A stretch of DNA of 64,000 nt, from NCBI RefSeq assembly GCF_009914755.1, contig NC_060938.1. One strand, written 5' to 3'. Under the pieces are notes generated by a model. The model was not told the DNA's origin. It did no database searches and saw nothing but the letters and a program-made list of their open reading frames with translations. Within the stretch, counting starts at the first letter, position 1; every line of letters begins with the position of its first letter. Source of the DNA: the human T2T-CHM13v2.0 reference genome, Homo sapiens. The position numbers were made by a program, and so were the translations under genes. Below, in pieces: positions 531 through 64,000 of this stretch.

Positions 531-4354
<3,824 letters not shown>

Positions 4355-4417
4355 TATGATGTTAGCTGGTTATTTTGCTCGTTAGTTGATGCAGTTTCTT
4401 CCTAGTCTCGATGGTCT

Positions 4418-39075: not shown

Positions 39076-40881
39076 GTTCTCCCTCTCCCTCTCCCTCTCC
39101 CTCTCCTCACGGTCTCCCTCTCCCTCTCCCCACGGTCTCCCTCTCCCTCTCTTTCCATTGTCTCCCTCTGATGCCGAGCCGAAGCTGGACTGTACTGCTG
39201 CCATCTCTGCTCACTGCAACCTCCCTGCCTGATTCTCCTGCCTCAGCCTGCTGAGTGCCTGCGATTGCAGGCATGCGCCACCATGCCTGACTGATTTTCG
39301 TATTTTTTTGGTGGAGACAGGGTTTCACTGTGTTGGCTGGGCTGGTCTCCAGCTCCTAACCGCGAGTGATCTGCCAGCCTCAGCCTCCCGAGGTGCCAGG
39401 ATTGCAGATGGAGTCTCATTCACTCAGTGCTCAATGTTGCCCAGGCTGGAGTGCAGTGGCGTGATCTCAGCTCGCTACAACCTCCACCTCCCAGCCGCCA
39501 GCCTTGGCCTCCCAAAGTGCCGAGATTGCAGTCTCTGCCCAGCCGCCACCCCATCTGGGAAGTGAGGAGCGTCTCTGCCTGGCCGCCCATCATCTGGGAT
39601 GTGTGGAGCCCCTCAGCCCGGCTGCCCAGTCTGGGAAGTGAAGAGCACCTCTTCCCGGTCGCCATCGCATCTAGGAAGTGAGGAGGGTCTCTGCCCGGCC
39701 GCCCATCGTCTGAGATGTGGGGAGCGCCTCTGCCCGGCCACTCCATCTGGGATGTGAGGAGTGCCTCTACCCAGCCACGACCCTGTCTGGGAGGTGAGGA
39801 GTGTCTCTGCCCGGCTGCCCAGTCTGAGAAGTGAGGAGCCCCTCTGCCCAGCAGCCGCCCCATCTGAGAAGTGAGGAGCCCCTCTGCCCAGCAGCTGCCC
39901 CATCTGAGAAGTGATGAGCCCCTCTGCCCTGCAGCCACCCCATCTGGGAAGTGAGGAGTGTCTCCGCCTGGCAGCCACCCCATCCAGGAGGGAGGTGGGG
40001 GGCAACCCCCACCAGTCAAGCCACCCCGTCCAGGAGGAAGATGGCAGGCAGCCCCCCCCCCCGGCCAGCTGCCCCATCCAGGAGGAAGGCAGGGGGCAGC
40101 CCCTGCCCGGCCAGCCACCCCATCTGGGAGGTAGGTGGGGGGCAGCCCCTTCCCGGCCAGCCGCCCCATCTGGGAGGGAGGTGGGGGGCAGCCCCCGCCC
40201 GGCCAGCCACCCCGGCAGGGAGGGAGGTGGGGAGCAGCCCACGCCCAGTCAGCCGCCCTGTCTGGGGGGTGGGGGGCGCCTCTGCCTGGCCACCCCTTCT
40301 GGGAAGTGAGGAGACCCTCTGCCCGGCCGCCACCCCATCTGGGAGGTGTACCCAACAGCTCATTGAGAACGGGCCATGATGACGATGGTGGTTTTGTCAA
40401 ATAGAAAAGGGGGAAATGTGGGGAAAAGATAGAGAAATCAGATTGTTGCTGTGTCTGTGTGGAAAGAAGTAGACATAGGAGACTCCATTTTGTTCTGTAC
40501 TAAGAAAAATTCTTCTGCCTTGGGATGCTGTTGATCTACGACCTTACCCCCAACCTGGTGCTCTCTGAAACATGTGCTGTGTCCACTCAGGGTTAAATGG
40601 ATTAAGGGCGGTGCAAGATGTGCTTTGTTAAACAGATGCTTGAAGGCAGCATGCTCATTAAGAGTCATCACCACTCCCTAATCTCAAGTACCCAGAGACA
40701 CAAACACTGAGGAAGGCACCAGGGTCCTCTGCCTAGGAAAACCAGAGACCTTTTTTCACTTGTTTATCTGCTGACCTTCCCTCCACTATTGTCCTGTGAC
40801 CTTGCCAAATCCCCCTCTGCAAGAAACACTCAAGAATGATCAATAAAAAAGAAAAAGAAAAAAAAACAACAAAAACAAAAA
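39076..40881 (+). mobile_element. SVA retrotransposon, full length, probably an older subfamily (SVA_B/C-like)
   Basis: (CCCTCT)n ~39079-39130, Alu-like ~39131-39530, GC-rich VNTR ~39530-40345, SINE-R ~40346-40847, AATAAA at 40842, A-rich tail. TSD AAAA(G/A)AAAGGTTCA at 39062-39075 and 41085-41098. Heavy CpG decay. Confidence 0.96.
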
Positions 40882-41090
40882 CTAGAAGAGTATAATTGGA
40901 TGTTTGTAACACAAAGGATAATAAATACTTGAGGGAATGGATAGTCTATTTTCCATGCTGTGATTGTTATGCCCTGCATGCCTGTATCAAAACATCTCAT
41001 ATATCCATAAATATATATATCTACTAAGTACCCACCAAAATTAAAAATTAAAAAATAAATAAAGTATACAAAATGAAAGGCAAAAAAAAA
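40882..41090 (+). mobile_element. SVA 3' transduction: 3' end of an old L1MA-type element plus a second poly(A)
   Basis: GAGTATAATTGGATGTTTGTAACACAAAGGATA…GCATGCCTGTATCAAAACATCTCAT…GTACCCACCAAAATTAAAAATT resembles the L1MA1-3 3' terminus; it lies inside the SVA TSDs; AATAAA at 41054 and 41058, poly(A) from 41082. Confidence 0.85.
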
Positions 41091-44000: not shown

Positions 44001-44594
44001 AATTCACACATCAGAAAGAAGTTTGTCAGAATGTTTCTGTATAGTTTTTATATGAAGATACTTCCTTTTCCACCATAGGATTCAAAGTGCTCCAAATTTC
44101 CACATGCAGATTGTACAAAGTTTTTCAAAGCCGTTCAATCAAATGAAAGGTTCAAACCTGTGAGATGAATGCACACATCACAAAGAAATTTGTCAGAATG
44201 TTTCTGTCTAGCTTTTTTGAAGATATTTCCTTTTCCATCATATGCCTCAAAGCACTCCAAATGTCCACTTGCAGATAATACAAAAAGGGAGTTTCAAAGC
44301 TGCTGAATCAAATAAAGGTTAAATTATTTGAGATGAATGCACATATCACAAAGAAGTTTGCAGAACGCTTCTGTCTAGTTTTCATGTGAAGATTTTTTTT
44401 CAACATATGCCTCAAATCGCTCCAAATGTCCACTTGCAGATTCTACAAAAAGAGTTTCCAAACTGCTCAATAAAAAGAAAGGTTCAACTCTGTGAGAAGA
44501 CCGCACACATCACAAAGAAGTTTCTCAGACTGCTTCTGTCTAGGTATTATGTGAAGATATTTCCTTTTCCACCATAGGCCTCAAAATGCTCCAA
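41091..44594 (-). repeat. Alpha satellite: layer X to ~42550, then layer Z
   Basis: Dimeric GATTGCTTC/GAATTCTTC alternation gives way at ~42660 to mostly uniform AGAATGCTTCTGTCTAGTTTTT monomers. Confidence 0.96.
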
Positions 44595-44720
44595 TCCACT
44601 CCACTGCATTCCATTCTGTCCCATTCCATTCCACTCCACCTCACTCCACTGCACTCCACCCCACTCCATTCCATTACTTTACATTACATTCCACTCCATT
44701 CCATTACATTCATTTCTTTC

Positions 44721-47700
44721 GACAGGATCTCACTCTGTAACCCAGGCTGCAGTGCAGTGGCACAATCTCAGCTCGCATTACATTTCACCTTTCCATTCCA
44801 TTCCATTGCATTCCATTCCTTTCCATTCTATTCCATTCCACTCCACTCCAAACCACTCTACTCGACTCCACTCTACTCCATTCCATTCCATCCCATTGCA
44901 TTCAACTCCACTCCACTCCACTCCTTTCTTTTGACAATATCTCACCCTGTCAACCAGCCTGGAGTGAAGTAGCACAATCTCAGCTCACATTTCATTTCAC
45001 CATTCCATTCCAATTCATTCCACGCCATTCCATTCCATTGCATTCCATTCAATTCCATTCCACTCCATTCCATTCCATTCCACTACACTCCGCTCCACTG
45101 CAATCCACTCCATTCCAATCCATCACACTCCCTTTCACTACATTGCATTCCACTCCACTCCACTCCCTTCCATTCCATCCCATTGCATTAAACTCCACTC
45201 CACTCCACTACACTGCACTACACTACACTCCATTCCACTACACTACACTACACTACACTACACTACACTACACTACACTACACTACACTCCCTTCCATTC
45301 CATTCCATTCCACACCATTCCATTCCATTCCATTCCTTTCTTTCGACAGGATATCACTCTGTCACCCAGGCTGGAGTGCAGTGGAGTAATCTCAGCTGAC
45401 ATTTCACTTCACCATTATATTTCATTGCATTCCATTCCATTCATTTCCATTCCATAACATTCCACTGCACTTCACTCCACTCCACTTCAATCCACTCAAC
45501 TCCATTCCAATCCATTTCATTCCATTCCATCCACTCCATTCCACTCCATTCCACTCCAATCCACTCCACCTCAGTCCAGTCCATTCTACTCCATTCCACT
45601 CCAATCCATCCTATCACATTCCACTCCATTCCTCTCCACTCCACTCCACTCCACTTCACTCCACTCCATTCCATTCCATTCCATTCCATTCCATTCCATT
45701 CCATTCCATTCCATTCCTTTCTTTCAACAGGATCTCACTCTGTCACCCAGGCTGGAGTGCAGCGGCACTATCTCAGCTCACATTTCATTTCACCATTCCA
45801 TTCCATTCCATTCCATTCCATTCCATTCCATTCCATTCCACTCCATTCCATTCCACTCCATTCCATTCAATTCCATTCCATTCCGTTCCATTCCACTTCA
45901 TTCCAGTCCACCCTTCTACATTCCAATCCACTCCACTCCATTCCATTGTATTCCACTCCATTCCACTCCACTCCACTCCACTCTAATCAACTCTACTCCA
46001 CTCCATGCCATTCCATTCCATTCCATCCCATTCCATTCCACAGCATTCCACTCCACTCCACTAAACTCCACTCCAATTCACTCCATTCCATTCCATTCCA
46101 TTCCATTCTACTCCATTCCATTCCATTCCTTTCTTTTGACAGGATCTCACTCTGTCACCCAGGGTGGAGTGCAGTAACACAATTTCAGTTCACATTTCAT
46201 TTCACCATTCCATTCCATTCCATTCCATTCCATTCCATTCCATTCCTTTCCATTCAATTCCATTCCATCCCATTCTATTAAACTCCACTCCACTCCATTC
46301 CATTCCATCCCATTCCATTAAACTCCCTTCCACTCCAGTCCACTCCACACCACTCCACTCCATTCCATTCAACTCCCATCCACTCCAGTCCGCTCCACAC
46401 CACTCCACTCCATTCCAACCCATTCCATTCCACTCCAGTCCGCTCCACACCACTCCACTCCATTCCAACCCATTCCATTCCACTCCATTCCAATCCATTT
46501 CACTCCACTACCCTCCACTCCATTCAATTCCACTCCAAACTATTCCATTCCTCTCCACTCCACTTCACTCCACTCCACTACTCTCCACTCCATTCCATTC
46601 CATTCCATTCCACTCCATTCCATTCCATTCGTTTTCTTCGAAAGAGTGTCACTCTGTCACTGAGGCTGGAGTGTAGTGGCACAATCTCAGATCACATTTC
46701 ATTTCACCATTCCATTACATTCAATTCCATTCTATTTAACTCCAATCCACTCCACCCCACTCCACGCCATTCCATTCCATTCCACTCCACTCCACTCCGC
46801 TATATTCCATTCAATTCCTTCCCATCCCATTCCACTCCATTCCATTCCTCTCCACTCCACTCCACTCCACACCACTTCTCTCCATTCCGCTCCATTCCAT
46901 TCCATTCCATTGCATTCCTTTCTTTCGACAGCATCTCACTCTGCCACCCAGGCTGGAGTGCAGTGGCACAATCACAGCTCACATTTAATTTCACCATTCC
47001 ATTCCATTCCGTTCCATTCCATTGCATTCCAGTGCACTCCACTCCATTCCATTCCACTCCACTCCATTCCATTCCATTCCATTCCATTCCACTCCATTCC
47101 ATCCCACTCCACTCCATTCAATCCATCCCATTATATTCCACTCCATTCCACATCACTCCACTCCATTTGAAACCATTACATTCCTTTCCATCCCATTCCA
47201 TTCCACTCCATTCCACTCCACTCCACTCCATTCCACTCCATTCCATTCCACTCCACTCCACTCCATTCCACTCCATTCCATTCCACTACACTCCACTCCA
47301 TTCAATTCCATTCCTTTCCATTCCACTCCATTCCATTCCATCACTTTCTTTTGACAGGGTCTCACTCTGTCACACAGGCTGGAGTACAGTGGCACAATCT
47401 GAGCTCACATTTCATTTCACCTTTCCATTCCATTACACTCCATTCCACTCCAGTCCACTCAACTCCACTCCACTCCATTCCATTCCATTCCACTCCACTC
47501 CAATCCTCTCCTCTACTCTCCATTCCATCTTATTCCATTCCATTCCATTCGACTCCACTCCACTCCGATCCTTTCTATAGCATCACTTTACATTCCACTC
47601 CATTTCACTCCACTCCAGTCCACTCCACTGCATTCCATTCCATTCAATTCCAATACAATCCATTACATTACTTTCCTATCTTTTGAAAGGAAAGTCACCC

Positions 47701-50700
47701 TGGCTGGAGTGCAGTGGCACAATCTCAGCTCACATTTTATTTCACCATTCCATTCCATTTCGTTCCATTCTGTTCCATTCTGCTCCACTCGACTCCACTC
47801 CCTTCCACTCCAGTCCACTCCACTCCACTCCTGTCCACTCCGCATCAATACTCTCCATCCCATTCCATTCCACTCCATTCCACTCCACTGCACTCCACTC
47901 CACTCCATTCCATTACATTCTGTCCCATTAGATTCCATTCCATACCACACCACTCCAGTCCACTCCACTCCATTCCATTCCATACCATTCCATTCCATTC
48001 CATTCCATCCCATCCCATTCCATTCCATCCCATCCCATTCTATTCCATTCCATTCCATTTCTTTCAATTCCACTTCACTGCAATCCATTCCCTTCTTTTG
48101 ACAGGATCTCACTCTGTGACACAAGCTGGAGTGCAAGTAGCACAATCTCATCTCAAATTTCATTTCACCATTCCATTCCACTCCATTCCACTCCAGTGCA
48201 CTCCACTCAACTCCACTCCACTCCACTACACTCCATTCCACTCCATTCCAATCCACTCCATTTGATTCCATTCCTTTCTTTGAGAGAATCTCACTCTGTT
48301 ACCCAGGCTGGAGTGCAGTGGCACAATTTCAGCTCATATTTCATTTCACGAGTCCATTCCATTCTATTCCATTCCATTCTACTCCACTCCAGTCCACTCC
48401 ACTCTGTTCCATTCCATTCCACTCCTCTCCACTCCACTGCAATGCACTCCATTCTGTTCCATCCTATTCCATTCCACTCCACTCCACTCCATTCCATTCC
48501 ATCCCATTCAATTCCACTCCATTCCACTCCACTTCACTCCACTCCATTCCACTCCATCCCATTCAATTCCACTCTATTCCACTCCCATCAACTCCACTCC
48601 ACTCCATTCCATTCCATTCCCTTCCATTCCATTCCTTTCCTTCGACAGGATCTCACTGTCACACCCAGGTTGGAGTGCTGTGGCACAATCTCAGCTCACA
48701 TTTCATTTCACCATTCTATTCCATTTCATTCCATTGCATTCCACTCCATTCCATTGCATTCCTTTCCTTTCCATTCCGTTCAATTCCATTCCATTCCATT
48801 CCATTCCACTCCACTCCACTCCACTCCATTTAACTCCGCTCCATTCTATTCAATTCCACTCCACTCCATTCCACTCCAATACACTCCACTCCACTCGGCT
48901 CCATTCCATTCCATTCCATTCCACTCCATTGCACTCCAGTGCACTCCACTCAACTCCACTCCACTAACCTCCACTCCATTCCATTCCAATCCATCCCATT
49001 CTATTCCACTCTATTCCCCTCCACTCCACTCCCCTCCACTTCACTGCACTTTAATCCAATCCAGTCCACTCTTGTTCACTCCACTCCACTCCATTCCACT
49101 CCATCCCATTCCATTCCACTCCACTCTACTGCACTCCACTCCACTCCATTCTATTCCATTCCACTCCTTTCCACTCCTTTCCTTTCTTTTGACAGGATCT
49201 CACTCTCACACCCCGGCTGGAGTGCCATGGCACAATCTCAGCTCACATTTCATTTCACCATTTTATTCTATTGCATTCCATCGCATTCTATTCCATTCTA
49301 TTCCATTGCATTCCACTACACTCCATTCCACTCCACTCCACTACACTACACTCGAGTCCATTCCATTGCTTTCCATTCCACTCCATTCCACTTCTCTGCA
49401 CTCCAGTCGACTCCACTCCACTCCACTCCACTTCATTCCATTCCAGTCCATCCCATTCTATTCCACTCCATTCCCCTCCACTCCACTTTACTCCACTCCA
49501 GTCCACTCCACTCCACTCCACCCACTCCACTACATTCCATTCCTTTCCATTATTTTCCAATCCATTCCATTCCTTTCCTTTCTTAAGACAGGATCTCACT
49601 CTATCACCCAGGATGGAGTACAGTGGGACAGTCTCAGCTCACATTTCATTTCACCATAGCATTCCATTCCTTTTCATTCCATTCCATTCTTTTAAATTCC
49701 ATTCCATTCCATTCCACTCCACTCCACTTCACTCCACTGCACTCCATTCCATTCTATCCCATTCCATTCCACTCCATTCCACGCCACTCCAATCCACTCC
49801 TTTCCATTCCATCCCATTCCATTCCACTCCAATCCACCCCAATCCACTCCACTCAACTCCACTCCACTCCTATCCACTCCATTCCATTCCACTCCATCCC
49901 ATTCTATTCATGCCAATCCACTCCACTTAACTCCACTCCATTCCATTCCACTACACTCCTTTCCATTCCATTCCTTTCTTTCGACAGGATCTCACTCTGT
50001 CACCCAAGATGGAGTACAGTGGCACAATCTCAGTTCACATTTCATTTCACCATTCCATTGCATTCCATTACATTGCATTCCTTTCCATTCCATTACGTTC
50101 CATTCCACTCCACTCCACTCTTCTGCATTCCATTCCATTCCATTCCATTCCACTGCATTCCATTCCACTCCACACCACTATATCCATTCCACTCTATTCC
50201 ATTCCACTCCAGTCCACTCCACTCCAATCCACGCCACTCCACTCCATGTCATTCCATCCCATTACATTCCACTCCATTCCACTCCACTCCACTCCATTCC
50301 ATTCCATTCTACTCCATTCCATTCCATTCCTTTCTTTTGACTGGATCTCACTCTGTCACCCAGGCTGGAGTGCAGCAACACAATTTCAGTTCACATTTCA
50401 TTTCACCATTCCATTCCATTCCATTCCATTCTATTCCACCCCACTTCACTCCACTCCACTCCATTCCAATCCATCCCACTCCATTCAGCTCCCTTCCACT
50501 CCAGTCCATTCCACACCACTCCACTCCATTCCATTCAACTCCCTTCCACTTCAGTCCACTCCAAACCACTGCACTACATTCCATTCCATCCCATTCCATT
50601 CCACTCCATTCCATTCCACTACATTCCATTCCATTCCATTACACTCCATTCCATTCCATTCCACTACACTCCATTCCATTCCGTTCCACTACATTCCATT

Positions 50701-53700
50701 CCATTCCATTCCATTACACTCCATTCCGTTCCATTCCTTTCTTTCTACAGGATCTCACACTGTCTCCCAGGCTGGAGTACAGTGGCACAATCTCAGCTCA
50801 CATTTCATTTCACCAATCCCTTCCACAGTATTCCATTCCATTCCATTCCACTCCATTCCATTCAATTCCATTCCACTGCACTCCACACCACTCCACTCCA
50901 TTCCATCCGGTTCCATTAGACTCCATTCCACTCAACTCCACTCCATTTCACTCTACTCCATTCCATTACATTCCGTTATACTCCATTCAATTCCATTTCT
51001 TTGTTTTGAGAGGATCTCACTCTGTCACCCAGGCTGGAGTGCAGTGACAAAGTTTCAGTTCACATTTCATTTCACAATTCCAATCCATTCCATTCCTTTC
51101 CATTCCATTCCATTAAATTCCATTCCATTCCATTCTATTCCACTCCATTCCACTCCACTCCAATTCACTCCATTCGATCCCATTCCATTCCACTCCATTC
51201 CACTCCACTCCACTCCTCTCCACTCCATTCCATTCTATTCCATCCATTGCATACCATTCCATTCCCCTCCACTCCACTCCTCTCCACTCCAGTCCACTCC
51301 ACTCCACTCCATTCCACTCCATTCCGTTCCATTGCACTCCATTCCGTTCCATTCCTTTCTTTTGACAGGATCTCACTCTCTCTCCCAGGATGGAGTGCAG
51401 TGGCACAATCTCAGCTCATATTTCGTTTCACCATTCCACTCTACTGCATTCCAATCCATTCCATTTCATTCCATTCCATTCCACTCCACTCCCCTATATA
51501 CATCCCACTCCATTACATTCCATTCCATTACACTCCACTCCACTCCATTCCACTCTATGCCACTCCACTCCATGTCATTCCATCCCATTACATTCCACTC
51601 CATTCCACTCCACTCCACTCCATTCCATTCCATTCCGTTCCATTCCATTCCGTTCCATTCCATTCCATTCCATTCCGTTCCATTCTAATCCATTCCATTT
51701 TATTCCTTTCTTTTGATAGGATCTCACTCTGTCACCCAGGCTGGAGTGCAGTAACGCAATTTCAGTTCACATTTCATTTCACCATTCCATTCCATTCATT
51801 TCCATTCCATTCCATTCCATTCCATTCCATTCCATTCCATTCATTTCCATTCCATTCCATTCCATTCCATTCCATTCATTTCCATTCCATTCCATTCCAT
51901 TCCACTCCACTCCACTCCATTCCATTCCATCCCATTCCATTCAACTCTCTTCCTCTCCATTCCACTCCACACCACTCTAATCCATTCCATTCAACTCCCT
52001 TACACTCCAGTACACTCCACACCACTCAACTCCATTCTATTCAATCCCATTCAATTCCATTCCATTCCACTATACTTCACTCCACTACCCTCCACGCCAT
52101 TCAATTCCACTGGAAACCATTCCATTCCACTCCACTCTACTCCTCTCCACTCCACTCCATTCCATTACATTCGAGTTCATTCCTTTCAATTCCAGTCCAC
52201 TCCACTCCACTACATTCCATTCAATTCCATCCCATCCCATTCCAATCCATTCCATTCCTCTCCATTCTACTGCACTCCACTCTACTCGTCTGCATTCCAT
52301 TCCATTCCTTTCTTTTGACAGCATCTCACTGTGTCACCAAGGCTGGAGTGCAGTGGCACAATCACAGCTCACATTTAATTTCACCATTCCATTCCATTGC
52401 ACTCCAGTGCACTCCACTGTATTCCACTCCACTCCATTCCATTCCATTCCATTCCATTCCATTCCATTCCATTCCACTCCACTCCAGTCCTCTCCATTCC
52501 AATCCATCCCATTCCTTTCCACTCCATTACACATCACTCAACTCCACTCCACTCCAAACCATTACATTCCTTTCCATCCCATTCTATTCCACTCCATTCC
52601 ACTCCACTCCACCCCACTCCTCTCCATTCAATTCCGTTCCTTTCCATTCCACTCCATTCCATTCCATCCCTTTCTTTCGACAGGGTCTCACTGTCTCACA
52701 CAGGCTGGAGTACAGTGGCACAATCTGAGCTCACATTTCATTTCACCTTTCCATTCCATTCCACTCCAATCCACTAAACTCCACTCCACTCCATTCCATT
52801 CCACTCCACTTTTCTCCTCTCCTCTCCATTCCATCCCATTCCATTCCACTCAATACCACTGCACTCCACTCCACTCCGATCCTTTCCATTACATCACATT
52901 GCATTCCACTCCTTTCCGCTCCACTCCACTACATTCCATTCCATTCAATTCCAGTACACTCCATAACATTACTTTCCTTTCTTTCAACAGGATCTCACTC
53001 TGTCACCCAGGCTGGAGTGTAGTGGCACAATCTCAGCTCACATTTCATTTCACCATTCCGTTCCATTCCATTCCATTCCATTCCATTCCTACTCCATTTC
53101 ATTCCACTCCACTCCACTCCACTCCATTTCACTCCATTCGACTCCATTCCACTCCACTCCATTCCACTCCAATCCACTCCACTCCACTCGATTGTATTCC
53201 ACTCCATTCCATTTCATTCCAGTCCATACCATTCCATTCCATTCCACTCCATTCCATTCCACTCCACTCCATTACACTCAGAGCACTCCACTCCATTCGA
53301 CTCCACTCCACTCCATTCCACTCCATTCCTTCCAGTCCACTGCATTCCATTTCACTCCATTCCACTCCATTCCACTCTATTCCACTCCACTCCATTCCAC
53401 TCCACTCCATTCCACTCCACTCCATTTGATTCCACTCCATTCCATTCCACTCCACTCCATTCCATTCCATTATACTCCATTTCGTTCCATTCCTTTATTT
53501 CGACTGGATCTCACTCTGTCACACATACTGGAGTGCAGTGGCACAATCTTAGCTCACATTTAATTTCACCATTCCTTTCCATTTCATTCTATTCCATTCC
53601 ATTGCATTCCACTCCACTTCACTCCACTCCATTCCACTCCACTCCTCTCCACTACACGACTCTACACTCCACTCCATTCCATTTCATTCCATTCCATTCT

Positions 53701-56700
53701 AATGCATTCTGATCCACTCCACTCAACTCCACTCCACTCCGCTCTATTCCATTCCGTTCCATTTTGTTCTATTCTGTTCCATTCCACTCCAATCCTTTCC
53801 ACTACCCTCCTTTCCACTGCACTCCATTTCACTCTACTGCACTCCATTCCACTCCAATCCACTCCAACCCACTCCACTCCACTCCATTACATTCCAATGC
53901 ACTTCATTCCATTCCATTCAATTCCATTCCCGTCCATTCCACTCCATTCCACTCCATTCCACAACACTTCATTCCACTGCAGTCCATTCCACTCCACTCC
54001 AATCCATTCCACTCCATTTCATTCATTTCCACTCCATTCCTTTCCATTCCACTCCACTGCATTCCACTCCACTCCTCTCCACTCCATTCCACTCCACTCT
54101 ACTCCAATCCACTACAGTCCATTCCAGTCCACTCCATTCCATTCCATTCTACTTCGTTCCTTTCCATTCCATTATTTCGACTGGATCTTCCTCTGTCACC
54201 CAGACAGGAGTGCAGTGGCACAATCTTAGCTCACATTTCATTTCCCCTTTCCATTCCATTGCATTCCATTCCATTCCATGTCATTCCATTCCACTCCACT
54301 CCACTCCACTCCACTCTACTCCATTCCGTTCTGTTCCATTCCATTTCATTGCATTCCGATCCATTCCATTCCATTCCTCTCCACTCCATTCCACTCAATT
54401 TCATTCCATGCCACTCAACTCCACTGCAGTCTTCTCCACTTCACTCCACTCCATTCCACTACAATCAACTAAACTCCACTCTACTCCACTCCACTCCATT
54501 CCATTCCATTCCATTCCATGCAACTACACTCCGATCATCTCCACTCAACTCCATTCCACTCCACTCACTCCGTTTCATTCCGTTCCGTTCCAGTTCTTTC
54601 CGTTCCTTTCCATTCCACTCCATTCCATTCCACTCCACTCCAGTCAACTCCACTCCATTTCACTCCATTCCACTCCATTCCACTCTTATCCACTCCACCC
54701 CAATCCACTACACTCCACTCCATTACATTCCACTCCATTCTATTCCATTCCATTGCATTCCATTCCACTCCACTCCATTCCATTCCATTGCACTCCATTC
54801 CACTCCATTCCAAACCATGCCACTCCACTCCACTCCATGTCATTCCATTACATTACATTCCAATCCATTCCACTCCACTCCACTCTATTCCATTCCATTC
54901 CATTCCATTGTACTCCATTCCATTCCTTTCCTTTGACAGGATCTCACTCTGTCACCCAGGCTGGAGTGCAGTAACAGAATTTTAGTTCACATTTCATTTC
55001 ACCGTTCCATTCCATTCCATTCCATTCCATTCCATTCCATTCCATTCCATTTTATTCCACTCCACTCCCCTCCACTCCATTCCATTCCATCCCATTAAAT
55101 TCAACTCCCTTCCACTCCAGTCCACTCCACACCACTCCACTCCATTCCATTCAACTCCCTACCACTTCTGTCCACTCCACACCACTACACTCCATTCCAG
55201 TCCATCGCATTCCATTCCACTCCATTCCACTCCACTATATTCCATTCCATTCTGTGACACTGCATTCCATTCCATTCCTTTTTTTCTACAGGATCTCATC
55301 CTGTCTCCCAGCCTGGAGTGCAGTGGCACAATCTCAGCTCACATTTCATTTCACCATTCCTTTCCACTGCATTCCATTCCATTCCATTCCATTCCATTCC
55401 TTTCCACTCTACTCCACTCCATCATATCCATTCCACTCCTTTCCATTCAATTCCATTCCATTGCACTCCACACCACTCCACTCCATTCCATCCGGTTCCA
55501 TTAGACTCCATTCCACTCAACTCCACTCCATTTCACTTTACTCCATTCCATTACATTCCATTATACTGCAATCAATTCCATTTCTTTGTTTTGAGAGGAT
55601 CTCACTCTGTCACCCAGGCTGGAGTGCAGTGACACAATTTCAGTTCATATTTCATTTCACCATTCCATTCCACTCCATTCCTTTATATTCCATTCCATTG
55701 AATTCCATTCCTTTCCGTTCCATTCCATTCTATTCCACTCCACTCCACTCCAATTCACTCCATTCTATCCCATTTGATTCCACTCCATTCCACTCCACTC
55801 CACTCCTCTCCACTCTATTCCATTCCACTCCATCCATTCCATACCACTCCATTCCCCTCCACTCCATTCCTCTCCACTCCAGTCCCCTCCATTCCACGCC
55901 ACTCCACTCCTCTCCACTCCAGTCCCCTGCACTCCACGCCACTCCACTCCACTCCATTCCACTCCATTCAATTCCATTGCATTCATTCGGTTCCTTTCCT
56001 TTCTTTCGACAGGATCTCACTCTCTCTCCCAGGTTGGAGTTCAGTGGCACAATCACAGCTCACATTTGGTTTCACCATTCCATTCCACTGCATTCCAATC
56101 CGTTCCATTTCATTCCATTCCACTATATCCATTCCACTCCATTCCATTCCATTCCATTCCACTCCTCTCCACTCCATTCCACTCCACGCCACTCCACTCC
56201 ATGTCATTCCATCCCATTACATTCCACTCCATTCCACTCCACTCCACTCCATTCCATTCAATTCCATTCCATTCTAATCCATTCCATTCCATTCCATTCC
56301 ATTCCATTCCATTCCATTCCATTCCAATCCATTCCATCCTATTTCTTTCTTTTGACAGGATCTCACTCTGTCAACCAGGCTGGAGTGCAGTAACACAATT
56401 TCAGTTCACATTTCACATCACCATTCAATTCCGTTCCATTCCTTTCCATTCCTTTCCATTCCACTCCATTCCATTCCATTCCACTCCCCTCCACTCCATT
56501 CCATTCCATCCCATTCCATTCAACTCCCTTCCTCTCCAGTCCACTGCAAACCACTCCACTCTATTCCATTCCATCCTTTCAATTCCACTCAATTCCACTC
56601 CACTTCATTCCACTACCCTCCGCTCAATTCAATTCCACTCGAAACCATTCCATTCCACTCCACTCCACGCCATTCCATTCCATTACATTCCAGTCCATTC

Positions 56701-59700
56701 CATTCCATTCCCGTCCACTCCACTCTGCTACATTCCATTGAATTCCATCCCATCTCATTCCAATCCATCCCATTCCTTTCCACTCCATTCCACATCACTC
56801 AACTCCACTCCACTCCAAACCATTACATTCCTTTCCATCCCATTCCATTCCACTCCATTCCACTCCACTCCACCCCACTCCTCTCCATTCAATTCCGTTC
56901 CTTTCCATTCCACTCCATTCCATTCCATCCCTTTCTTTCGACAGGGTCTCACTGTCTCACACAGACTGGAGCACAGTGGCACAATCTGAGCTCACATTTC
57001 ATTTCACCTTTCCATTCCATTCCACTCCATTCCACTCCAGTCCACTCAACTCCACTCCACTCCATTCCATTCCACTCCACTACACTTTTCTCCTCTCCTC
57101 TCCATTACATCCCATTCCATTCCACTCCATTCCACTGCACTCTACTCCCCTCCGATCCTTTCCATTGAATCACATTGCATTCCACTCCATTCCACTGCAC
57201 TCCACTCCTCTACATTCCGTTCCATTCCATTCCATTCCTTTCTTTCGACAGCATCTCACTCTGTCACACAGTTTGGAGTGCAGTGGCACAATCACATCTC
57301 ACATCTAATTTCACCATTCCATTCCATTCCGTTCCATTACATTGCATTCCAGTGGACTCAACTCCTTTCCACTCCACTCCATTCCATTCCATTCCATTCC
57401 ATTCAATTCCATTCCAATCCACTCCAGTCCTCTCCATTCCAATTCGTCCCATTACATTCCACTCCATTCCACATCACTCCACTCCACTCCACTCAAAACC
57501 ATTACATTCCTTTCCATCCCATTCCATTCCACTCCATTGCACTCCACTCCACTCCATTCAATTCCGTTCCTTTCCATTCCACACCATTCCATTCCATCCT
57601 TTTCTTTCGACAGGGTCTCACTGTCTCACACAGACTGGAGCACAGTGGCACAATCTGAGCTCACATTTCATTTCACCTTTCCATTCCATTCCACTCCATT
57701 CCACTCCAGTCCACTCAATTCCACTCCACTCCATTCCATTCCACTCCACTACACTTTTCTTCTCTCCTCTCCATTCCATCCCATTCCATTCCACTCCATT
57801 CCACTGCACTCTACTCCCCTCCGATCCTTTCCATTGAATCACATTGCATTCCACTCCATTCCACTGTACTCCACTCCACTCCACTCCACTACATTCCATT
57901 CCATTCAATTCCAGTATACTCCATAAAATTACTTTCCTATCTTTCCACAGGATCTCACTCTGTCACCCAGGCTGGAGTGCAGTCGCACAATCTCAGCTCA
58001 CATTTCATTTCACCATTCCGTTCCATTCCATTCCATTCCATTTCATTCCACTCCACTCCACTCCACTCCATTTCACTCCATTCCACTCCATCCCACTCCA
58101 CTCCACTCCATTCCATTGCATTCCAGTCCATTCCATTTCATTCCAATCCAATCCATTACATTCCATTCCACTCCATTCCGCTCCATTCCATTCCAGTCCA
58201 ATCCATTCCACTCAGTGCACTCCACTCCATTCCACTCCACTCCACTCCATTCCACTCCATTCCTTCCATTCCACTCCATTCCATTTCATTCCATTCCAAT
58301 GCATTCCATTCTATTCCACTCCACTCCATTCCATTCCACTCCATTCCATTTCATTCCACTCCATTCCATTCCACTCCACTCCATTCCATTCCATTCTACT
58401 CCATTTCCTTCCATTCCTTTATTTTGACTGGATCTCACTCTGTCACACATACTGGAGTGCAGTGGCACAATCAGTTCACATTTCATTTCACCATTCCATT
58501 CCATTTCATTCTATTCCATTCCATTCCACTCCAGGCCACTACACTACACTCAACTCCACTCCATTTCACTCTACTCCATTCCGTTCTGTTCCATTCCATT
58601 CCGTTCCATTCCATTGCATTCCATTCCATTCCATTCCATTCCATTCCATTCCTCTCGACTCCATTCCGCTCCACTCAATTCCACCCCATTCCACTCAACT
58701 CCCCTGCAGTCCTCTCCACTCCACTCCATTCCACTACAGTCCACTAAACTCTACTCTACTCCACTCAATTTCAATCCATTCCATTCCATTCCATGCAACT
58801 GCACTCCGATCAACTACACTCAACTCCACTCCACTCCACTCACTCCATTTCATTCTGTTCTGTTGCAGCTGTTCCGTTCCTTTCAATTCCACTCAATTGC
58901 ATTCCACTCCACTCCAGTCCACTCCACTCCATTTCACTCCATTCCACTCCTATATACTCCACTCCACTCCAATCCACTCCACTCCACTCCATTACATTCC
59001 ACTCCATTCTTCTCCATTCCTCTCCATTCCATTCCATTCCATTCCATTCCATTCCATTCCACTCCATTCCCCTCTGCTCCACTCCATTCCATTCCACTCC
59101 ACTCCATTCCACTCCACTCCACTCCATTCCACTCCACTCCGTTTCACTAACTCCACTCCACTCCACTCCACTCCATTCCTTGCATTCCAATCTATTCCTT
59201 TTCATTTTATTCCACTCCACTCCACTCCATTCCACTCCACTCCATTCCACTCTACTCCATTCCACTAAGCTCCATTCCATTCCACTCCATTCCATTCCAC
59301 TCTACTCCATTCCATTCCTTTCCTTTCTACTCCCTTCCATTCCATCATTTCGACTGGATCTCACTCTGTCACCCAGACTGGATTGCAGTGGCACAATCTT
59401 AGCACACATTTCATTTCACCATTCCATTCCATTACACTCCACTCAATTACATTCCATTCCACTACACTCCACTACACTCTACTTCCCTCCACTCCATGCC
59501 ACTCCACTCCATTCTACTTGACTCCTTTCCATTCCATTCCATTCAATTCCATTCTATTCCATTCCATTCCAGTGCACTTTTATCCACTCCACTCAACTCC
59601 AATCCACACCTCTCCACTCCTCTCCATTCCATTCCTTTCCATTCCATTCCGTTCTGTTCCATGCCATTTCTTTCCATTCCATTCCATTCCACTCTACTCC

Positions 59701-62700
59701 ATTCCCTTCCACTCCACTCTATTCCATTCCACTCCATTCCATTCCATTCCACTCCACTCCACTCCATTCCATTCCACTCCACTCCATTCCATTCCTTTCC
59801 ATTCCATTCCATTAAATTCCACACCACTCCGATCCACTCCACTCAACTCCACTCCAATCCACTCCACTCCAATCTGTTCCTTTCCATTCCATTCCATTCC
59901 ACTCCTTTCTATTCCACTACAATCCATACCACTCCACTACATTTCTCTCATTTCCATTCCATTACAGTCCACTCGACTCCACTCCAGTACACTCCATTCA
60001 ATTCCATTCCACTCCATTACATTCCAGTCCACTCCATTCCTTTCCATTCCATTCCAATCCATTCCACTCCATTACACTCCACTCCACTCCACTCCACTTC
60101 ATTCCATTCCACTCCAAACCATTACACTCCACTCCACTCCAATCCATTCTACTCCACTACACTCCATTCCATTCCATTCCATCCCTTTCCACTCTACCCC
60201 ACACCACTCCACTCCATTCCATTCCACTCCACTCCATTCCATTGCAATCCATTCCATTCCGTTCCATCCCACTCCACTCTGAACCACTCCACTCAACTCC
60301 ACTGCATTCCACTCCACTCCACTTAGTTCTGTTCTGCTTCTTTCCATTCCGTTCCTTTACATTCCATTCCATTCCATTCCACTCCACTCTGAACCACTCC
60401 ACTTAACTCCACTTCATTCCTGTCCACTCCACTCAGTTCCGTTCTGTTTCTTTCCTTTCCATTCCATTCCGTTTCGTTCCATTACATTCCAATCCCCTTC
60501 ATTCCATTGCAGTCCACATCACTCCACTCCACTCCACTCCATTCCATTCCACTCCACTACACTCCATTCCATTCCACTCTACTCCACACCACTCCACTAC
60601 ACTCCATTCCATTCCATTCCATTCCATTCCATTCCAATCCATTCCATTCCACTCCATTCCATTCAGATCCATTCCATTCCATTCCACTCCACTATGAACC
60701 ACTCCACTCAACTCCACTGCATTCCAGTCCACTCCACTCAGTTCCGTTCTGTTTCTTTCCATTCCGTTACATTCCATTCCATTCCGTTCTATTTCATTCC
60801 AATCCTCTCCATTCCATTACAGTCCATTCCATTCCACTTCACTCCAATCCACTTCACTCCACTCCACTCCACTCCTCTCCACTCAATTTCATTCCACTCC
60901 ATTCCGTTCCATTTCACTCCATTACATTCCATTCCATTGCTCTCCATACCCCTCCATTCCACTCCACTCCATTCTACTCCACTCATCTCCACTCCACTCC
61001 ATTCCACTCCATTACATTCCACTCCATTCCATTCCATTCCATTCCATTCCATTCCATTCCACTCCATTCCATTCCATTCCACTCCATTCCATTCCATTCC
61101 ATTCCATTCCACTCCATTCCATTCCATTCCATTCCACTCCATTCCATTCCATTCCACTCCATTGCTCTCCATTCCACTCCTCTCCATTCCACTCCACTCC
61201 ATTCCACTCCACTCCACTTCATTCCACTCCATGCCATTCCACTCCACTCCTTTCCTTCCCATTCTACTCCATTGCATTCCAGTCCTTTATTTCAAATGAA
61301 TCTCACTCTGTCATCCAGAAAGGAGTGCAGTGGCACAATTTTAGCTCACATTTCATTTCACCATTCTCTTCCATTCCATTCAATTCCACTGCATTCCATT
61401 CTACTCCACTCCTTTCCATTCCACTTCACTCCATTCCACTCTATTCCACTCTACTCCCTTCCATTCCAATCCACTCCACCCCATTCCTTTCCATCCAGTT
61501 GCATTCCATTCAATTCCACTGCACTCCGATCCACTCCACTCTACTCCTCTCCACTCCACTCCACTCCGTTCCTTTCTTTTCCATTCCATTTCATTTCATT
61601 CCATTCCATTCCGTTACATTCCATTTCATTCCACTCTACTCCACTCCATTCCACTTCACACCATTCCACTAAACTCCACACCACTCCACTGCACTCTACT
61701 TCACTCCACTCCATTCCTTTCCATTCCATTCCATTCCACTGCACTCGGTTTCACTCCACTGAACTCCCCTCCATTCCACTCCACTCCACTCCGTTCCATT
61801 CCGTTCCATTCTGTTTCATTCCATTCCACTCCATTCCATTCCTCTCCCCTCCGTATCACTCCACTCCATTTCCCTACATTCCACTCCATTTTACTCGACT
61901 CCTCTCCGATACACTTTACTTCATTCCATTCCAATCCATTCCCTTCCAGTCCACTCCATTCCATTCCATTCCATTCCCCTCCATTCCACTCCATTCCACA
62001 CCACTCCGTTCCACTCCCCTACACTCCACTCCACTCCATTTCATTCCACTCCACTCCATTCTATTCCATTCCATTCCTCTCCACTACATTCCATTCCAAT
62101 CCATCAAATTCCATTCCATTCCACTGCACTGTGACCCACTCCTCTCAATTCCACTCCACTCCATTCCATTCCATTCCACTCCATTCTGTTCCATTCAATT
62201 CCATACCGTTCCATTCCATTCCATTCCACTCCACTCCCTTCCATTCCACTTCATTCCACTCCACTCCCTTCCATTCCACTCCATTCCACTCCACTCCACA
62301 CAACTCCTCACAACTCCAGTCAATTCCACTCAATTCCACCAAACTCCTCTCCACTCACTACACTCCATTCCAGTCCATTTCATTCCATTCAATTCAAGTG
62401 CACTCCGATCCACTCCAATGAACTCCACTCCACTCCACCCCACTCCTTTCCATTCTCTTCCATTCTGTTCCATTCCATTCCAATCCATTCAATTCCACTC
62501 CACTCCATTCCACTCCACTCCATTTCACTACATTCCACTCCATTCCATTGCAATCCACTGCATTCCACTCCACTCCATTCCCTCCCTTTCCACTGCATTC
62601 CATTCCATTAAACTCCACTCCACTCCATTTCACTCCATTCCACTCCACTCCACTCCATTCCACTCCATTCCATTTCACTCCAACCCATTCCATTTCATTT

Positions 62701-63728
62701 TACTCCATACCTTTCCATTCCTTTATTTTGACTGGATCTAACTTTGTCACCCAGACTGTAGTGCAGTTGCAGAATCTTAGCTCACATTTCATTTCACTAT
62801 TCCATTCCATTCCATTCCATTCCATTCCACTCCACTCCACTCCACCCTACTCCATTCCACTCCACTACACTACACACCACTCCCCTCCACTTCACTCTGT
62901 TCCATTCAACTTCACTCCATTCCATTCCATTCCATTCCAGTACACTCTGATCCACTCCACTCAACTCCACTCCACTTCACTCCACTCCTCTCCATTACTT
63001 TCCTTTCCATTCTGTTGCATGCCATTCCACTCCATTCCATTCGACTCCATTTCACTCCACTCCATTTCACTCCATTCTACCCCATTCCACTCCACTCCAA
63101 TCCACTCCTTTCCATTCCATGCCACTAAATTCCATTCCAAACCATTCCACTTCGTTCCACTCCACTCTGTTGCACTCCAATCCATTCCACTCTACTCCAC
63201 TCCGCTCAACTCCACTCCACTCCACTTCAATCCACTCCACTACATTCCATTCCATTCTATTCCATTCCATTCCATTCCATTCCATTATACTCAACTCCAT
63301 TACCTTCCCCTCCATTCCACTCCAATCCACTCCTCTCTGCTACACACCAGTCCATTCCATTCCACTCTACTCCACTTCACTCGACTCCATTCTGTTCCAT
63401 TCAGTTCCATTCCATTCCGTTCTGTGCCACTCCACACCATTGCTTTCCATTTCACTCCATTCCACTCCACTCCTGTTCACTACATTCCACTCCATTCCAC
63501 TCCACTCCATTCCTGTGCATTGCATTCCATTCCATTCCACTGCACTCTGATCCACTCCTGTCAACTCCATTCCTCTACAGTCTGTTCCACTCCACTCCAT
63601 TGCACACCATTCCATACCACTGCACTCCATTCCATTCCATTCGACTCCATTCCATTTCACTCCTTTATTTGGATTGGGACTCTCTCTGTCACCCAGATTG
63701 GAGTGCAGTTGCACAATCTTAGCTCACA
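44721..63728 (-). repeat. About 39 interspersed copies of a ~55-bp Alu 3'-end fragment (AluJ-like)
   Basis: Consensus GACAGGATCTCACTCTGTCACCCAGGCTGGAGTGCAGTGGCACAATCTCAGCTCAC. Approximate starts: 44721, 44933, 45345, 45726, 46138, 46640, 46927, 47353, 47685, 48100, 48282, 48644, 49191, 49587, 49983, 50339, 50746, 51008, 51364, 51715, 52317, 52679, 52986, 53502, 54179, 54935, 55287, 55593, 56008, 56354, 56940, 57247, 57609, 57946, 58426, 59352, 61294, 62730, 63672. Confidence 0.92.
45236..45285 (+). repeat. (CACTA)10 pure microsatellite within the satellite
   Basis: Ten uninterrupted CACTA units read directly. Confidence 0.9.
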
Positions 63729-64000
63729 TATCATTTCACCATTCCATTCCATTCCATTCTATTCCATTCCACTGCACTGCAATACACTGCACTCAACTCT
63801 ACGCCACTCCAATCCACTCCACTATGTTCCATTCCATTCTATTCTGTTCATTCCGTTCCATTCCGTTCCATTCTGTTCCATTCCGTTCCATTACATTCCA
63901 TTCCACTCCACTCCATTCCCTTCCCCCACATTCCACTCCAATCCACTCCACTCCACTACACACGGGTCCATTCCATTCCAATCCACCCCTCTTCATTCCA

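What the first reader, a model, noticed from the sequence alone, without database searches (positions are those of the whole stretch)
44595..64000. Composite Alu-fragment/pentamer satellite: one ~55-bp Alu end amplified ~39 times as part of the repeat unit
Seen: the copies share the same two breakpoints, the same orientation and the same flanks (TTTCTTTC before, ATTTCATTTCACCATTCC after). Alu CpG positions are mostly fixed as CpA (TCACTC, GTCACC, GGCACAAT, TCAGCT), and there are no individual TSDs. Inference: these are not independent insertions. One already-decayed, 5'-truncated AluJ-like end was co-amplified with the satellite, giving units of roughly 200-750 bp. On the G-rich strand the Alu end runs into GAAAGAAAGGAATGGAAT, so the pentamer tract sits where the Alu A-tail should be. 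Either the tail seeded the satellite, or the fragment landed in pre-existing HSat3. I cannot tell whether this composite is already catalogued.
Basis: partly seen in the sequence, partly recalled or inferred. Interest (0 to 1): 0.8.

Follow-up and report, generated by a model that had tools for sequence, protein, structure and literature searches.

The report
Alu-punctuated human satellite 3 array
A stretch of classical human satellite 3 on the short arm of chromosome 14 carries the same 56-base Alu tail-end remnant in every repeat unit; the remnant was copied along with the satellite rather than inserted many times, and this kind of satellite is already described.

Summary
The window holds 39 copies of a 56-nt Alu 3'-end piece, all on one strand and with the same two junctions. 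They sit in CATTC/CACTC pentamer satellite from 44,595 to the window end; the block runs on to about 69,300.

- The six Alu CpG sites are fixed as CpA, while the CpG at the tail junction is still decaying.
- A later full-length Alu inserted in the same block has a poly-T run and a 16-nt target-site duplication. The 39 pieces have neither.

The structure is not local or new. The same junctions occur at least 2,000-2,400 times genome-wide (about 3,250 after scaling), on chromosomes 1, 3, 4, 9, 10, 13-16, 20-22 and Y. The window's block is 98% identical to chr13 and chr21 copies. It is old (units 75-89% alike) and carries a nested repeat of about 4.2-5 kb. It resembles subfamily HSat3A4.

T2T papers already state that HSat3 units include ancient TE fragments and that Alu fragments are interspersed with HSat3 on the acrocentrics and Y. 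The "AluJ-like" call cannot be resolved from 56 nt. Whether the Alu tail seeded the pentamers stays open but is unlikely. Interest is low.

The parts
44595..64000 (+). HSat3 block with the C-rich CATTC/CACTC strand on +. It continues past the window to about 69,300 (C14:8,005,300). Alpha satellite lies on both sides.
   Evidence: (GC skew -0.6 to -0.86), and 60 (TRF period 5, 3,740 copies, 68% matches).
44001..44594 (.). Alpha-satellite monomers abutting the HSat3 block (context).
   Evidence: period 165, 3.6 copies.
50325..54920 (+). Nested-repeat period B (approximate): ten Alu-punctuated units.
   Evidence: Its units pair with those of period C at 77-89% identity; the lag is 4,541-4,960 bp.
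54921..59337 (+). Nested-repeat period C (approximate).
44721..44776 (+). Alu 3'-end piece 1 (antisense Alu on + strand), 56 nt
44933..44988 (+). Alu piece 2, 56 nt
45345..45400 (+). Alu piece 3, 56 nt
45726..45781 (+). Alu piece 4, 56 nt (part of the query copy 45712-45800)
46138..46193 (+). Alu piece 5, 56 nt
46640..46695 (+). Alu piece 6, 56 nt (diverged left end)
46927..46982 (+). Alu piece 7, 56 nt
47353..47408 (+). Alu piece 8, 56 nt
47685..47733 (+). Alu piece 9, 49 nt (7-nt internal deletion)
48100..48156 (+). Alu piece 10, 57 nt
48282..48337 (+). Alu piece 11, 56 nt
48644..48699 (+). Alu piece 12, 56 nt
49191..49246 (+). Alu piece 13, 56 nt
49587..49642 (+). Alu piece 14, 56 nt
49983..50038 (+). 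Alu piece 15, 56 nt
50339..50394 (+). Alu piece 16, 56 nt
50746..50801 (+). Alu piece 17, 56 nt
51008..51063 (+). Alu piece 18, 56 nt
51364..51419 (+). Alu piece 19, 56 nt
51715..51770 (+). Alu piece 20, 56 nt
52317..52372 (+). Alu piece 21, 56 nt
52679..52734 (+). Alu piece 22, 56 nt
52986..53041 (+). Alu piece 23, 56 nt
53502..53557 (+). Alu piece 24, 56 nt
54179..54234 (+). Alu piece 25, 56 nt
54935..54990 (+). Alu piece 26, 56 nt
55287..55342 (+). Alu piece 27, 56 nt
55593..55648 (+). Alu piece 28, 56 nt
56008..56063 (+). Alu piece 29, 56 nt
56354..56409 (+). Alu piece 30, 56 nt
56940..56995 (+). Alu piece 31, 56 nt
57247..57302 (+). Alu piece 32, 56 nt
57609..57664 (+). Alu piece 33, 56 nt
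57946..58001 (+). Alu piece 34, 56 nt
58426..58479 (+). Alu piece 35, 54 nt
59352..59407 (+). Alu piece 36, 56 nt
61294..61349 (+). Alu piece 37, 56 nt
62730..62785 (+). Alu piece 38, 56 nt
63672..63727 (+). Alu piece 39, 56 nt. Two more pieces follow outside the window, at about 64,303 and 67,380-67,760.

Best explanation
This is an old, diverged array of classical human satellite 3, probably the acrocentric subfamily HSat3A4. Its repeat unit is a run of CATTC/CACTC pentamers punctuated by a 77-nt non-pentamer insert. The insert has three parts: an 8-nt degenerate Alu tail (TTTCTTTC), the last 56 nt of an Alu in antisense, and a 13-nt variant flank (ATTTCATTTCACC).

Proposed history:
1. One Alu, with a GAAA-type decayed A-tail, came to lie against (GGAAT)n, most likely by retrotransposition into an existing pentamer array (inferred).
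2. Only its last 56 nt survived, through 5' truncation or a later deletion or unequal exchange (inferred).
3. Its CpGs decayed (shown to precede amplification).
4. The pentamer tract plus the remnant was then amplified as one unit by unequal exchange (single origin shown, mechanism inferred).
5. Pentamer tracts drifted in length in steps of five (shown by spacings modulo 5).
6. Groups of about ten units were re-amplified as a nested repeat of about 4.2-5 kb (shown).
7. Blocks were spread among acrocentric short arms, several pericentromeres and the Y by segmental duplication or ectopic exchange (distribution shown).

The window's block is one such copy, shared with chr13 and chr21 at 98% identity together with its alpha-satellite flank and an SVA. 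No function is indicated; the Alu piece is a passenger and a lineage marker.
For: Single origin:
- 39 of 39 window copies lie on one strand with the same junctions.
- 338 copies from the window plus 17 sampled stretches (11 chromosomes) give one consensus. Both junctions are intact in 298 of 338, the left in 313 and the right in 323.
- Genome counts are 2,412 for the right junction and 2,008 for the left, at up to 2 mismatches, against 0 and 1 for the controls. Scaled by the fraction of sampled copies that pass the same test (251 and 207 of 338), both give about 3,250 copies.
- An exact 41-mer across the right junction occurs 46 times, on C9, C13-C16, C20-C22 and C24, which is Y.

It is Alu:
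- The 56-mer fits a gapped pattern that 79,939 genomic sites match.
- Against the commonest state in the 100 sites printed, it differs at 8 of 56 positions. Six of these are G-to-A changes at CpGs.
- A full-length euchromatic Alu used as query gave 312 HSPs in the window and sampled stretches. 309 of them end within the first 70 nt from the tail. The other three are two SVA Alu-like regions and one separate young Alu.

Decay came before amplification:
- The six internal sites are CA in 245-300 of 338 copies and CG in at most 9.
- The tail-junction CpG is CG 143, TG 115, CA 29.

Internal contrast: a later Alu at L011:3424-3723 interrupts one old piece. It has 20 T, a full body, mixed CG/CA/TG states and a perfect 16-nt target-site duplication.

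Natural tail: 16 euchromatic Alus have CTTTCTTTYGACAGG and then continue as Alu. Two were read; their tails are (AAGG)n and (GAAA)n.

Pentamer slippage: 274 of 320 spacings are 1 or 2 modulo 5.

Nested repeat: lag peaks lie near 4250, 4550-4600, 4900-4950 and 9550. Units pair at 77-89% identity, with one pair at 96%.

Segmental duplication: window 38001-54971 aligns to chr13 at 98.0% over 17.1 kb, to chr21 at 98.4% over 10 kb, to chr15 at 93-95% and to chr22 at 90-95%.

Subfamily:
- 5 of 12 tested HSat3A4-specific 24-mers occur in the block.
- All 5 listed 24-mers containing ACTCCACTCCACTCCA are labelled 3A4.

In print:
- HSat3 is 'intermingled with Alu fragments' on the acrocentrics and Y.
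Against: - The T2T-Y preprint calls these fragments AluY, derives them from PAR1 AluY elements and reports no clustering or homogenization. My data neither show nor exclude AluY, because the 56 nt carry too few diagnostic sites.
- 40 of 338 sampled copies fail one junction test, mostly because of partial deletions.
- I sampled only about 200 kb plus pattern counts, and the search tool describes its counts as lower bounds.
- No founder target-site duplication can be shown, so insertion into a pre-existing array is inferred, not demonstrated.
- The timescale is uneasy. Copies differ from their consensus by 10.7%, and a CpG decay period came before that. By ordinary Alu clocks (recalled) the two together would be older than expected, so a faster rate in satellite DNA has to be assumed.
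- The HSat3A4 assignment rests on 12 of 65 markers, without an equal-sized negative control. The top A4 marker itself is absent. The composite also lies on chromosomes not listed for A4.
- No ape genomes could be searched.
Confidence: 0.85

Rival explanations
1. Tail-seeded origin. The pentamer tract of this HSat3 lineage grew out of the A-tail of the Alu itself: A-tail to (GAAA)n to (GGAAT)n. A tandem duplication with one breakpoint inside the Alu then created the unit. On this reading the Alu came before the satellite.
For: - The pentamers start directly after a 9-nt GAAAGAAAG tail.
- Euchromatic Alus with the identical tail start have grown (AAGG)n and (GAAA)n microsatellites. One, at C4:133.1 Mb, shares the 9-nt tail and the first 26 nt of the Alu end.
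Against: - Pentamers flank the piece on both sides.
- The same CATTC/CACTC vocabulary is shared with HSat3 and HSat2 arrays that are described as deriving from one ancestral (CATTC)n (passages).
- Most HSat3 lacks the piece: about 1.2-1.4 Mb carries it, out of the 47.6 Mb of HSat3 stated.
- No locus with a full Alu at an array edge was seen in the sampled stretches.
- The match to the chr4 Alu could be chance among about a million Alus.
Confidence: 0.1
2. Many independent Alu insertions into a hotspot in the satellite, each truncated at the same place.
For: Annotation pipelines count SINE/Alu as the most frequent 'TE insertion' in HSat3, at about 81 per Mb (passage).
Against: - Both breakpoints are identical, the strand is uniform, and the same decayed CpG states and the same 13-nt variant flank recur in hundreds of copies.
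- There are no poly-A runs.
- The one true later insertion in the block looks entirely different.
- 81 per Mb times the 47.6 Mb of HSat3 is about 3,900, close to my estimate of about 3,250 co-amplified copies. Those 'insertions' are therefore largely this one piece (inference).
Confidence: 0.01
3. The 56-mer, or its conserved 13-nt flank, is retained because it does something in the array. For example, it could act as a splice-acceptor-like or protein-binding punctuation in satellite transcripts or chromatin. On this reading it is not a pure passenger.
For: - The 13-nt right flank is the least diverged part: 6.4%, against 10.7% for the Alu piece and 11-13% for the pentamer flanks.
- The piece persists in arrays on at least 13 chromosomes.
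- Antisense Alu ends are known sources of cryptic 3' splice sites (recalled, not tested).
Against: - The Alu piece itself is no better conserved than the pentamers.
- Pieces thin out and carry deletions in parts of arrays.
- The low divergence of the flank may reflect how copies were found and aligned.
- No expression or binding data were examined.
Confidence: 0.04

Closest known systems
HSat3 nested tandem repeats that carry ancient TE fragments, and the HSat3-Alu fragments of the acrocentrics and Y (Altemose et al. 2021 preprint, passages; Rhie et al. T2T-Y preprint, passages)
   Same: - The satellite family is the same, and so are the chromosomes (acrocentrics and Y).
- Alu fragments form part of the repeating structure.
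- There is a kilobase-scale nested periodicity and no local homogenization.
- The exact junction 41-mer lies on Y as well as on the acrocentrics.
   Different: - Those texts, as far as I read them, do not state that the pieces share one pair of breakpoints and pre-amplification CpG decay.
- The T2T-Y text calls them AluY seeded from PAR1, which my data do not support or exclude.
HSat3 subfamily HSat3A4, with reference clone pTRS-47 (Altemose et al. 2014, PMC4022460; Table 1 and Dataset S2)
   Same: - It is rich in both CATTC and CACTC and localizes to the acrocentrics and Y.
- It is old and has few specific 24-mers.
- 5 of 12 tested markers are present.
- The estimated amount, about 1.2-1.4 Mb, is near half of the 2,518 kb diploid figure.
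   Different: - The top A4 marker is absent from the window.
- The composite also lies on chromosomes 1, 3, 4, 9, 10, 16 and 20.
- No listed marker contains the Alu piece.
- The pTRS-47 sequence itself was not available to me.
[quoted passage not shown]
   Same: The window's block abuts alpha satellite at 44594/44595 and is 98% identical to chr13 and chr21 copies, flank included.
   Different: The clone sequence and the paper are not held, so identity cannot be tested.
HSat1B / DYZ2 (passages)
   Same: It is a classical satellite whose unit contains one ancient Alu-derived subunit that was co-amplified with non-Alu sequence.
   Different: - The unit is about 2.5 kb, homogeneous and AT-rich, and lies mainly on Y.
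- It has a larger Alu part and no pentamers.
AluSx3-WaluSat and the TE-containing composite arrays of Hoyt et al. 2021 (passages)
   Same: An Alu is associated with a satellite that expanded on acrocentric short arms through segmental duplication.
   Different: In WaluSat the Alu sits beside the array and only the 64-nt satellite is amplified. Here the Alu remnant is inside every unit.

Membership tests
Human satellite 3 (HSat3) | Arrays derived from the pentamer CATTC/GGAAT | tested here: met
   TRF finds period 5, 3,740 copies, consensus CCATT. CATTC plus CACTC words cover about 0.34-0.58 of each 2-kb bin from 44 to 69 kb.
Human satellite 3 (HSat3) | Pericentromeric or acrocentric short-arm location next to other satellites | tested here: met
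   The window is chr14:7.94-8.00 Mb (given). Alpha satellite lies on both sides. Related arrays are on acrocentric short arms and pericentromeres.
HSat3A4 subfamily (Altemose 2014) | Presence of subfamily-specific 24-mers and absence of those of other subfamilies | tested here: inconclusive
   5 of 12 tested A4 24-mers (of 65 listed) are present, with 6 hits in 19.4 kb. The single top marker of each of the 11 subfamilies, A4 included, gave 0 exact hits. No equal-sized negative control was run.
HSat3A4 subfamily (Altemose 2014) | Localization to chromosomes 13, 14, 15, 21, 22 and Y | tested here: inconclusive
   The composite is on all of these. It is also on 1, 3, 4, 9, 10, 16 and 20, so it may span several subfamilies.
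Alu SINE (3' end) | Collinear similarity to the Alu 3' terminal sequence | tested here: met
   The 56 nt fit a pattern matched by 79,939 genomic sites, with 48 of 56 identical to the commonest state and 6 of the 8 differences at CpGs. Hits of a full Alu query end within 70 nt of its tail end in 309 of 312 HSPs.
Alu SINE (3' end) | A-rich tail directly after the 3' end | tested here: met
   The tail is GAAAGAAAG on the sense strand. The same junction occurs in 16 euchromatic Alus, and the two that were read have A/G-rich microsatellite tails.
Alu SINE (3' end) | Target-site duplication and an approximately 300-nt dimeric body (an individual retrotransposition) | tested here: not met
   Only 56 nt are present, and all copies share the same flanks, so there is no per-copy duplication. 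The later Alu at L011:3424-3723 shows what a true insertion looks like here. A duplication for the founder is not recoverable in a pentamer repeat.
   Hand tally of the 100 Alu ends printed. At positions 4-7 the piece has AGGA. This is one step from AGGG (12 of 100, of which 9 carry ATCA at positions 45-48) and two steps from GGAG/AGAG (about 65 of 100). At positions 45-50 the piece has the majority ATCTCA. That the AGGG+ATCA class is AluJ is recalled, not tested. No Dfam models were available.
Composite element sensu Hoyt et al. 2021 | The repeating unit is built from TEs combined with other repeat subunits | not tested
   The unit has one TE fragment plus a simple pentamer tract. I read only passages and did not see their full definition or list.

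The most novel reading that the evidence does not exclude
This whole HSat3 lineage (about 3,250 units, roughly 1.2-1.4 Mb, on at least 13 chromosomes) may not have received an Alu. It may instead have grown out of one. On this reading a single old Alu's degenerate GAAA-type tail mutated into GGAAT repeats, as Alu tails do in pentanucleotide-expansion loci. A duplication with one end inside the Alu then launched the satellite. The 56-nt piece would be the birth scar of a major acrocentric satellite and would give it a maximum age.

A weaker and much more likely version (about 0.8) is that nearly all 'Alu insertions in HSat3' counted in T2T-era annotations are copies of this one pre-decayed fragment. 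That fragment would then be a clade marker for tracing exchange among acrocentrics, pericentromeres and Y. It would not be a set of AluY seedings.
Probability: 0.1. Interest if true: 0.6.

Novelty: already known. Interest (0 to 1): 0.2.

Why it matters
It matters mainly as a clarification. Counts of Alu 'insertions' in HSat3 are dominated by one co-amplified remnant, so they say nothing about Alu target preference in satellites.

The two junction words (23-24 nt, with essentially no background) are ready-made markers for one HSat3 lineage. They could be used to date and trace sequence exchange among acrocentric short arms, several pericentromeres and the Y in human and ape T2T assemblies.

For the window itself the result is ordinary. 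It holds an old HSat3 island inside an acrocentric-shared segmental duplication.

Tried and rejected
- A fuzzy-regex scan for copies timed out and printed nothing; blastn-short replaced it.
- Rfam at E<=1 found nothing in 44-64 kb. The piece is too short. The only weak SRP hits lie in the SVA at 39.2-39.4 kb.
- The window has no true Alu to compare with; the 39.4-kb hit is the Alu-like region of an SVA.
A 10-kb fetch was allowed but happened to hold no Alu.
A gapped pattern gave the 100 Alu ends used instead.
- The top subfamily 24-mers of Altemose 2014 gave no exact hit in the window.
- No Dataset S2 24-mer contains the Alu piece or its junctions. A control term showed that the file is searchable.
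- The HSAT4/5/6 literature was checked for a catalogued composite and gave nothing informative. Whether RepeatMasker's HSAT5 consensus covers this unit is a recollection I could not test.
- The older clone papers were not held: Choo 1990 and 1992 and Jarmuz 2007. Bandyopadhyay 2001 and Vissel 1992 were seen only as references.
- Searches for 'HSat3A4' with 'Alu' found 0 papers. 'Alu fragments' with 'HSat3' found only the two T2T preprints.
- A recent palindrome between the inverted HSat3 blocks flanking the alpha satellite was rejected: identity is only 72-80%.

Full report
**What is in the window**

From 44,595 the sequence changes from alpha satellite (TRF period 165) to a strongly strand-asymmetric pentamer satellite. 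Its GC skew is -0.6 to -0.86. TRF finds period 5, 3,740 copies and consensus CCATT.

CATTC and CACTC words together cover about a third to a half of every 2-kb bin. The block does not end at 64,000. With the next 40 kb of the chromosome fetched, pentamers continue to about 69,300 (C14:8,005,300) and alpha satellite resumes there. It is a 25-kb HSat3 island.

**The observation**

One 89-nt copy (45712-45800), searched against the window with blastn-short, gave 40 hits. Of these, 39 lie between 44707 and 63746, all on the + strand. One lies at 39440-39473, which on reading is the Alu-like region of an SVA.

The alignment of the 39 copies shows the same left junction (CATTCC TTTCTTTY | GACAGG) and the same right junction (CAGCTCAC | ATTTCATTTCACC ATTCC). 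The Alu piece is 56 nt in 36 of 39 copies. Both junction windows pass at up to 4 mismatches in 35 of 39.

Spacings are 182-756 bp for the first 34 intervals and then 926, 1942, 1436 and 942 bp. Two more pieces follow beyond the window.

**Is it Alu?**

The window holds no true Alu, so I used the genome. A gapped pattern built from the piece, with N at variable places, matches 79,939 sites, and 100 of them were printed. The commonest printed state has CG at six places. The piece differs from that state at 8 of 56 positions, and six of these are G-to-A changes at those CpGs.

A full-length euchromatic Alu (read), used as query against the window plus 17 sampled stretches, gave 312 HSPs. 309 of them end within 70 nt of the tail end. 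The other three are two SVA Alu-like regions and one separate Alu.

Rfam found nothing in the block, as expected for 56 nt.

**One origin, and decay before amplification**

At the six Alu CpG sites the 338 sampled copies have CA in 245, 300, 279, 291, 266 and 278. CG is present in at most 9, and TG is not among the six commonest states.

The CpG created by the tail junction (TTTC|G) is different: CG 143, TG 115, CA 29. So CpG decay does go on in these arrays and gives both products, but the Alu-internal sites were already CA in the founder.

A further contrast lies just outside the window. At L011:3424-3723 (C14:8,003,424-8,003,723) a later Alu interrupts one old piece. It has 20 T, a full body, a mixture of CG, CA and TG at the same six sites, and a perfect 16-nt duplication TGCAGTGGCACAATCT on both sides. 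None of the 41 old pieces has any of these features.

**Scale**

The unit is not a chr14 peculiarity. A 412-nt unit finds full-length matches on chr13 (99%), chr21 (97%), chr22 (92%), chr15, chr20, chr3 and elsewhere on chr14.

- The right junction word occurs 2,412 times at up to 2 mismatches (reversed control 0).
- The left junction word occurs 2,008 times (control 1).
- In my sample 251 and 207 of 338 copies pass those same tests, so both counts scale to about 3,250 copies.

In twenty 10-kb samples the piece recurs 8-29 times per 10 kb in the stretches that lie wholly inside an array, always on one strand within an array. These samples cover chromosomes 1, 3, 4, 9, 10, 13, 14, 15, 20, 21 and 22. 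An exact 41-mer across the right junction adds chr16 and the Y.

The median spacing is 376 bp, and 274 of 320 spacings are 1 or 2 modulo 5. This fits a 77-nt insert in tracts that change by whole pentamers.

**Internal structure and age**

Unit-to-unit identity in the window is 75-89%, with one pair at 96%. The pieces differ from the 338-copy consensus by 10.7% (9.9% in the window) and from each other by 17.5%.

Variant classes of the piece recur, and 16-mer lag counts peak near 4250, 4550-4600, 4900-4950 and 9550. Units at 50.3-54.9 kb pair with units at 54.9-59.3 kb, and partly with 46.1-48 kb. This is a nested repeat of about ten Alu-punctuated units, itself old.

By contrast, window 38001-54971 (SVA, alpha satellite and HSat3) is collinear with chr13 at 98.0% over 17.1 kb and with chr21 at 98.4% over 10 kb. 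Identity is 93-95% to chr15 and 90-95% to chr22. The whole module is a recently exchanged acrocentric duplication.

**Which Alu, and which came first?**

In the 100 printed Alu ends (hand tally), positions 4-7 are GGAG or AGAG in about 65 and AGGG in 12. Nine of those 12 also carry ATCA at positions 45-48, which only 1 of the other 88 does.

The piece has AGGA (seen in 2 of 100) together with the majority ATCTCA. It is therefore one step from the older-looking class at one site and identical to the majority at the other. That the AGGG+ATCA class is AluJ is my recollection.

The tail looks genuine. Sixteen euchromatic Alus have CTTTCTTTYGACAGG and then continue as Alu. The two I read have (AAGG)n and (GAAA)n tails. 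This keeps the tail-seeded idea alive. However, pentamers flank the piece on both sides, and the piece-bearing arrays are a small part of an HSat3 family said to derive from one (CATTC)n. I therefore favour insertion into, or capture next to, an existing array.

**What is known**

- The Altemose et al. [quoted passage not shown] It cites Bandyopadhyay et al. 2001 (not held) and names kilobase units 'nested tandem repeats'.
[quoted passage not shown] It reports no local homogenization and proposes seeding from PAR1 AluY.
- A 2026 preprint (passage) counts about 81 SINE/Alu per Mb in HSat3. Multiplied by 47.6 Mb of HSat3, that is close to my 3,250 copies, so those counts are probably mostly this piece (inference).
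- Subfamily: 5 of 12 tested HSat3A4-specific 24-mers occur in the block. All five listed 24-mers with three CACTC in a row are labelled A4. The amount fits. The test is nonetheless incomplete.
- The title of Vissel et al. 1992 (pTRS-2; a reference seen) fits this block, but the paper is not held.
- Two searches for the specific composite found no further text.

**Verdict**

This is a real structure, correctly read in its essentials, and it belongs to a described kind of satellite. What the session adds is modest:
- a single pair of breakpoints genome-wide;
- proof that CpG decay came first;
- a copy-number estimate;
- two clean marker words.

Noticed in passing
L011:3408-3739 (C14:8,003,408-8,003,739; window-equivalent 67,408-67,739): A later full-length Alu (20 T plus body) sits inside one old Alu piece. 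It is flanked by a perfect 16-nt target-site duplication, TGCAGTGGCACAATCT. It shows that the block did receive at least one true insertion.
   Followed up: yes
window about 39,080 to at least 39,720; high GC to about 42,000: An SVA element lies on the + strand: hexamer repeats, an Alu-like region, then VNTR-type repeats. It is embedded in alpha satellite 5 kb before the HSat3 block and is also present in the chr13 copy. It was only read.
   Followed up: partly
window about 20,000; L009-L010 (C14:7,921,500-7,933,000): GC skew and GAATG content flip sign near 20 kb, so the alpha satellite changes orientation there. A second HSat3 block with the same Alu piece lies upstream on the minus strand. 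The two arms are only 72-80% identical, so this is not a recent palindrome.
   Followed up: partly
all 338 sampled copies (right flank of each piece, e.g. window 45782-45794): The 13-nt flank ATTTCATTTCACC is the least diverged part of the unit: 6.4%, against 10.7% for the Alu piece and 11-13% for the pentamer flanks. This may be an artefact of how the copies were found.
   Followed up: no
the six CpG sites of the piece and the tail-junction CpG: All six founder CpGs went to CA on the + strand and none to TG. The still-decaying junction CpG goes mostly to TG (115 against 29). Copies are not independent events, so no strand bias can be claimed.
   Followed up: no
L020 (C3:95.52 Mb), L021 (C4:49.55 Mb), L026 (C13:5.13 Mb): These three arrays share the same series of partly deleted pieces, recurring about every 4.57 kb. 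This points to a second nested-repeat family spread by duplication.
   Followed up: no
L030 (C4:133,117,700-133,118,400, minus strand): A full-length euchromatic Alu here has a tail that begins with the same 9 nt as the satellite insert and then continues as (AAGG)n. Its first 26 nt equal the satellite piece. It could be coincidence or a relative of the founder.
   Followed up: partly
window 1-6,000: Strong AT skew (-0.25 to -0.34) with GC 0.38-0.39, unlike the alpha satellite that follows. Not examined.
   Followed up: no
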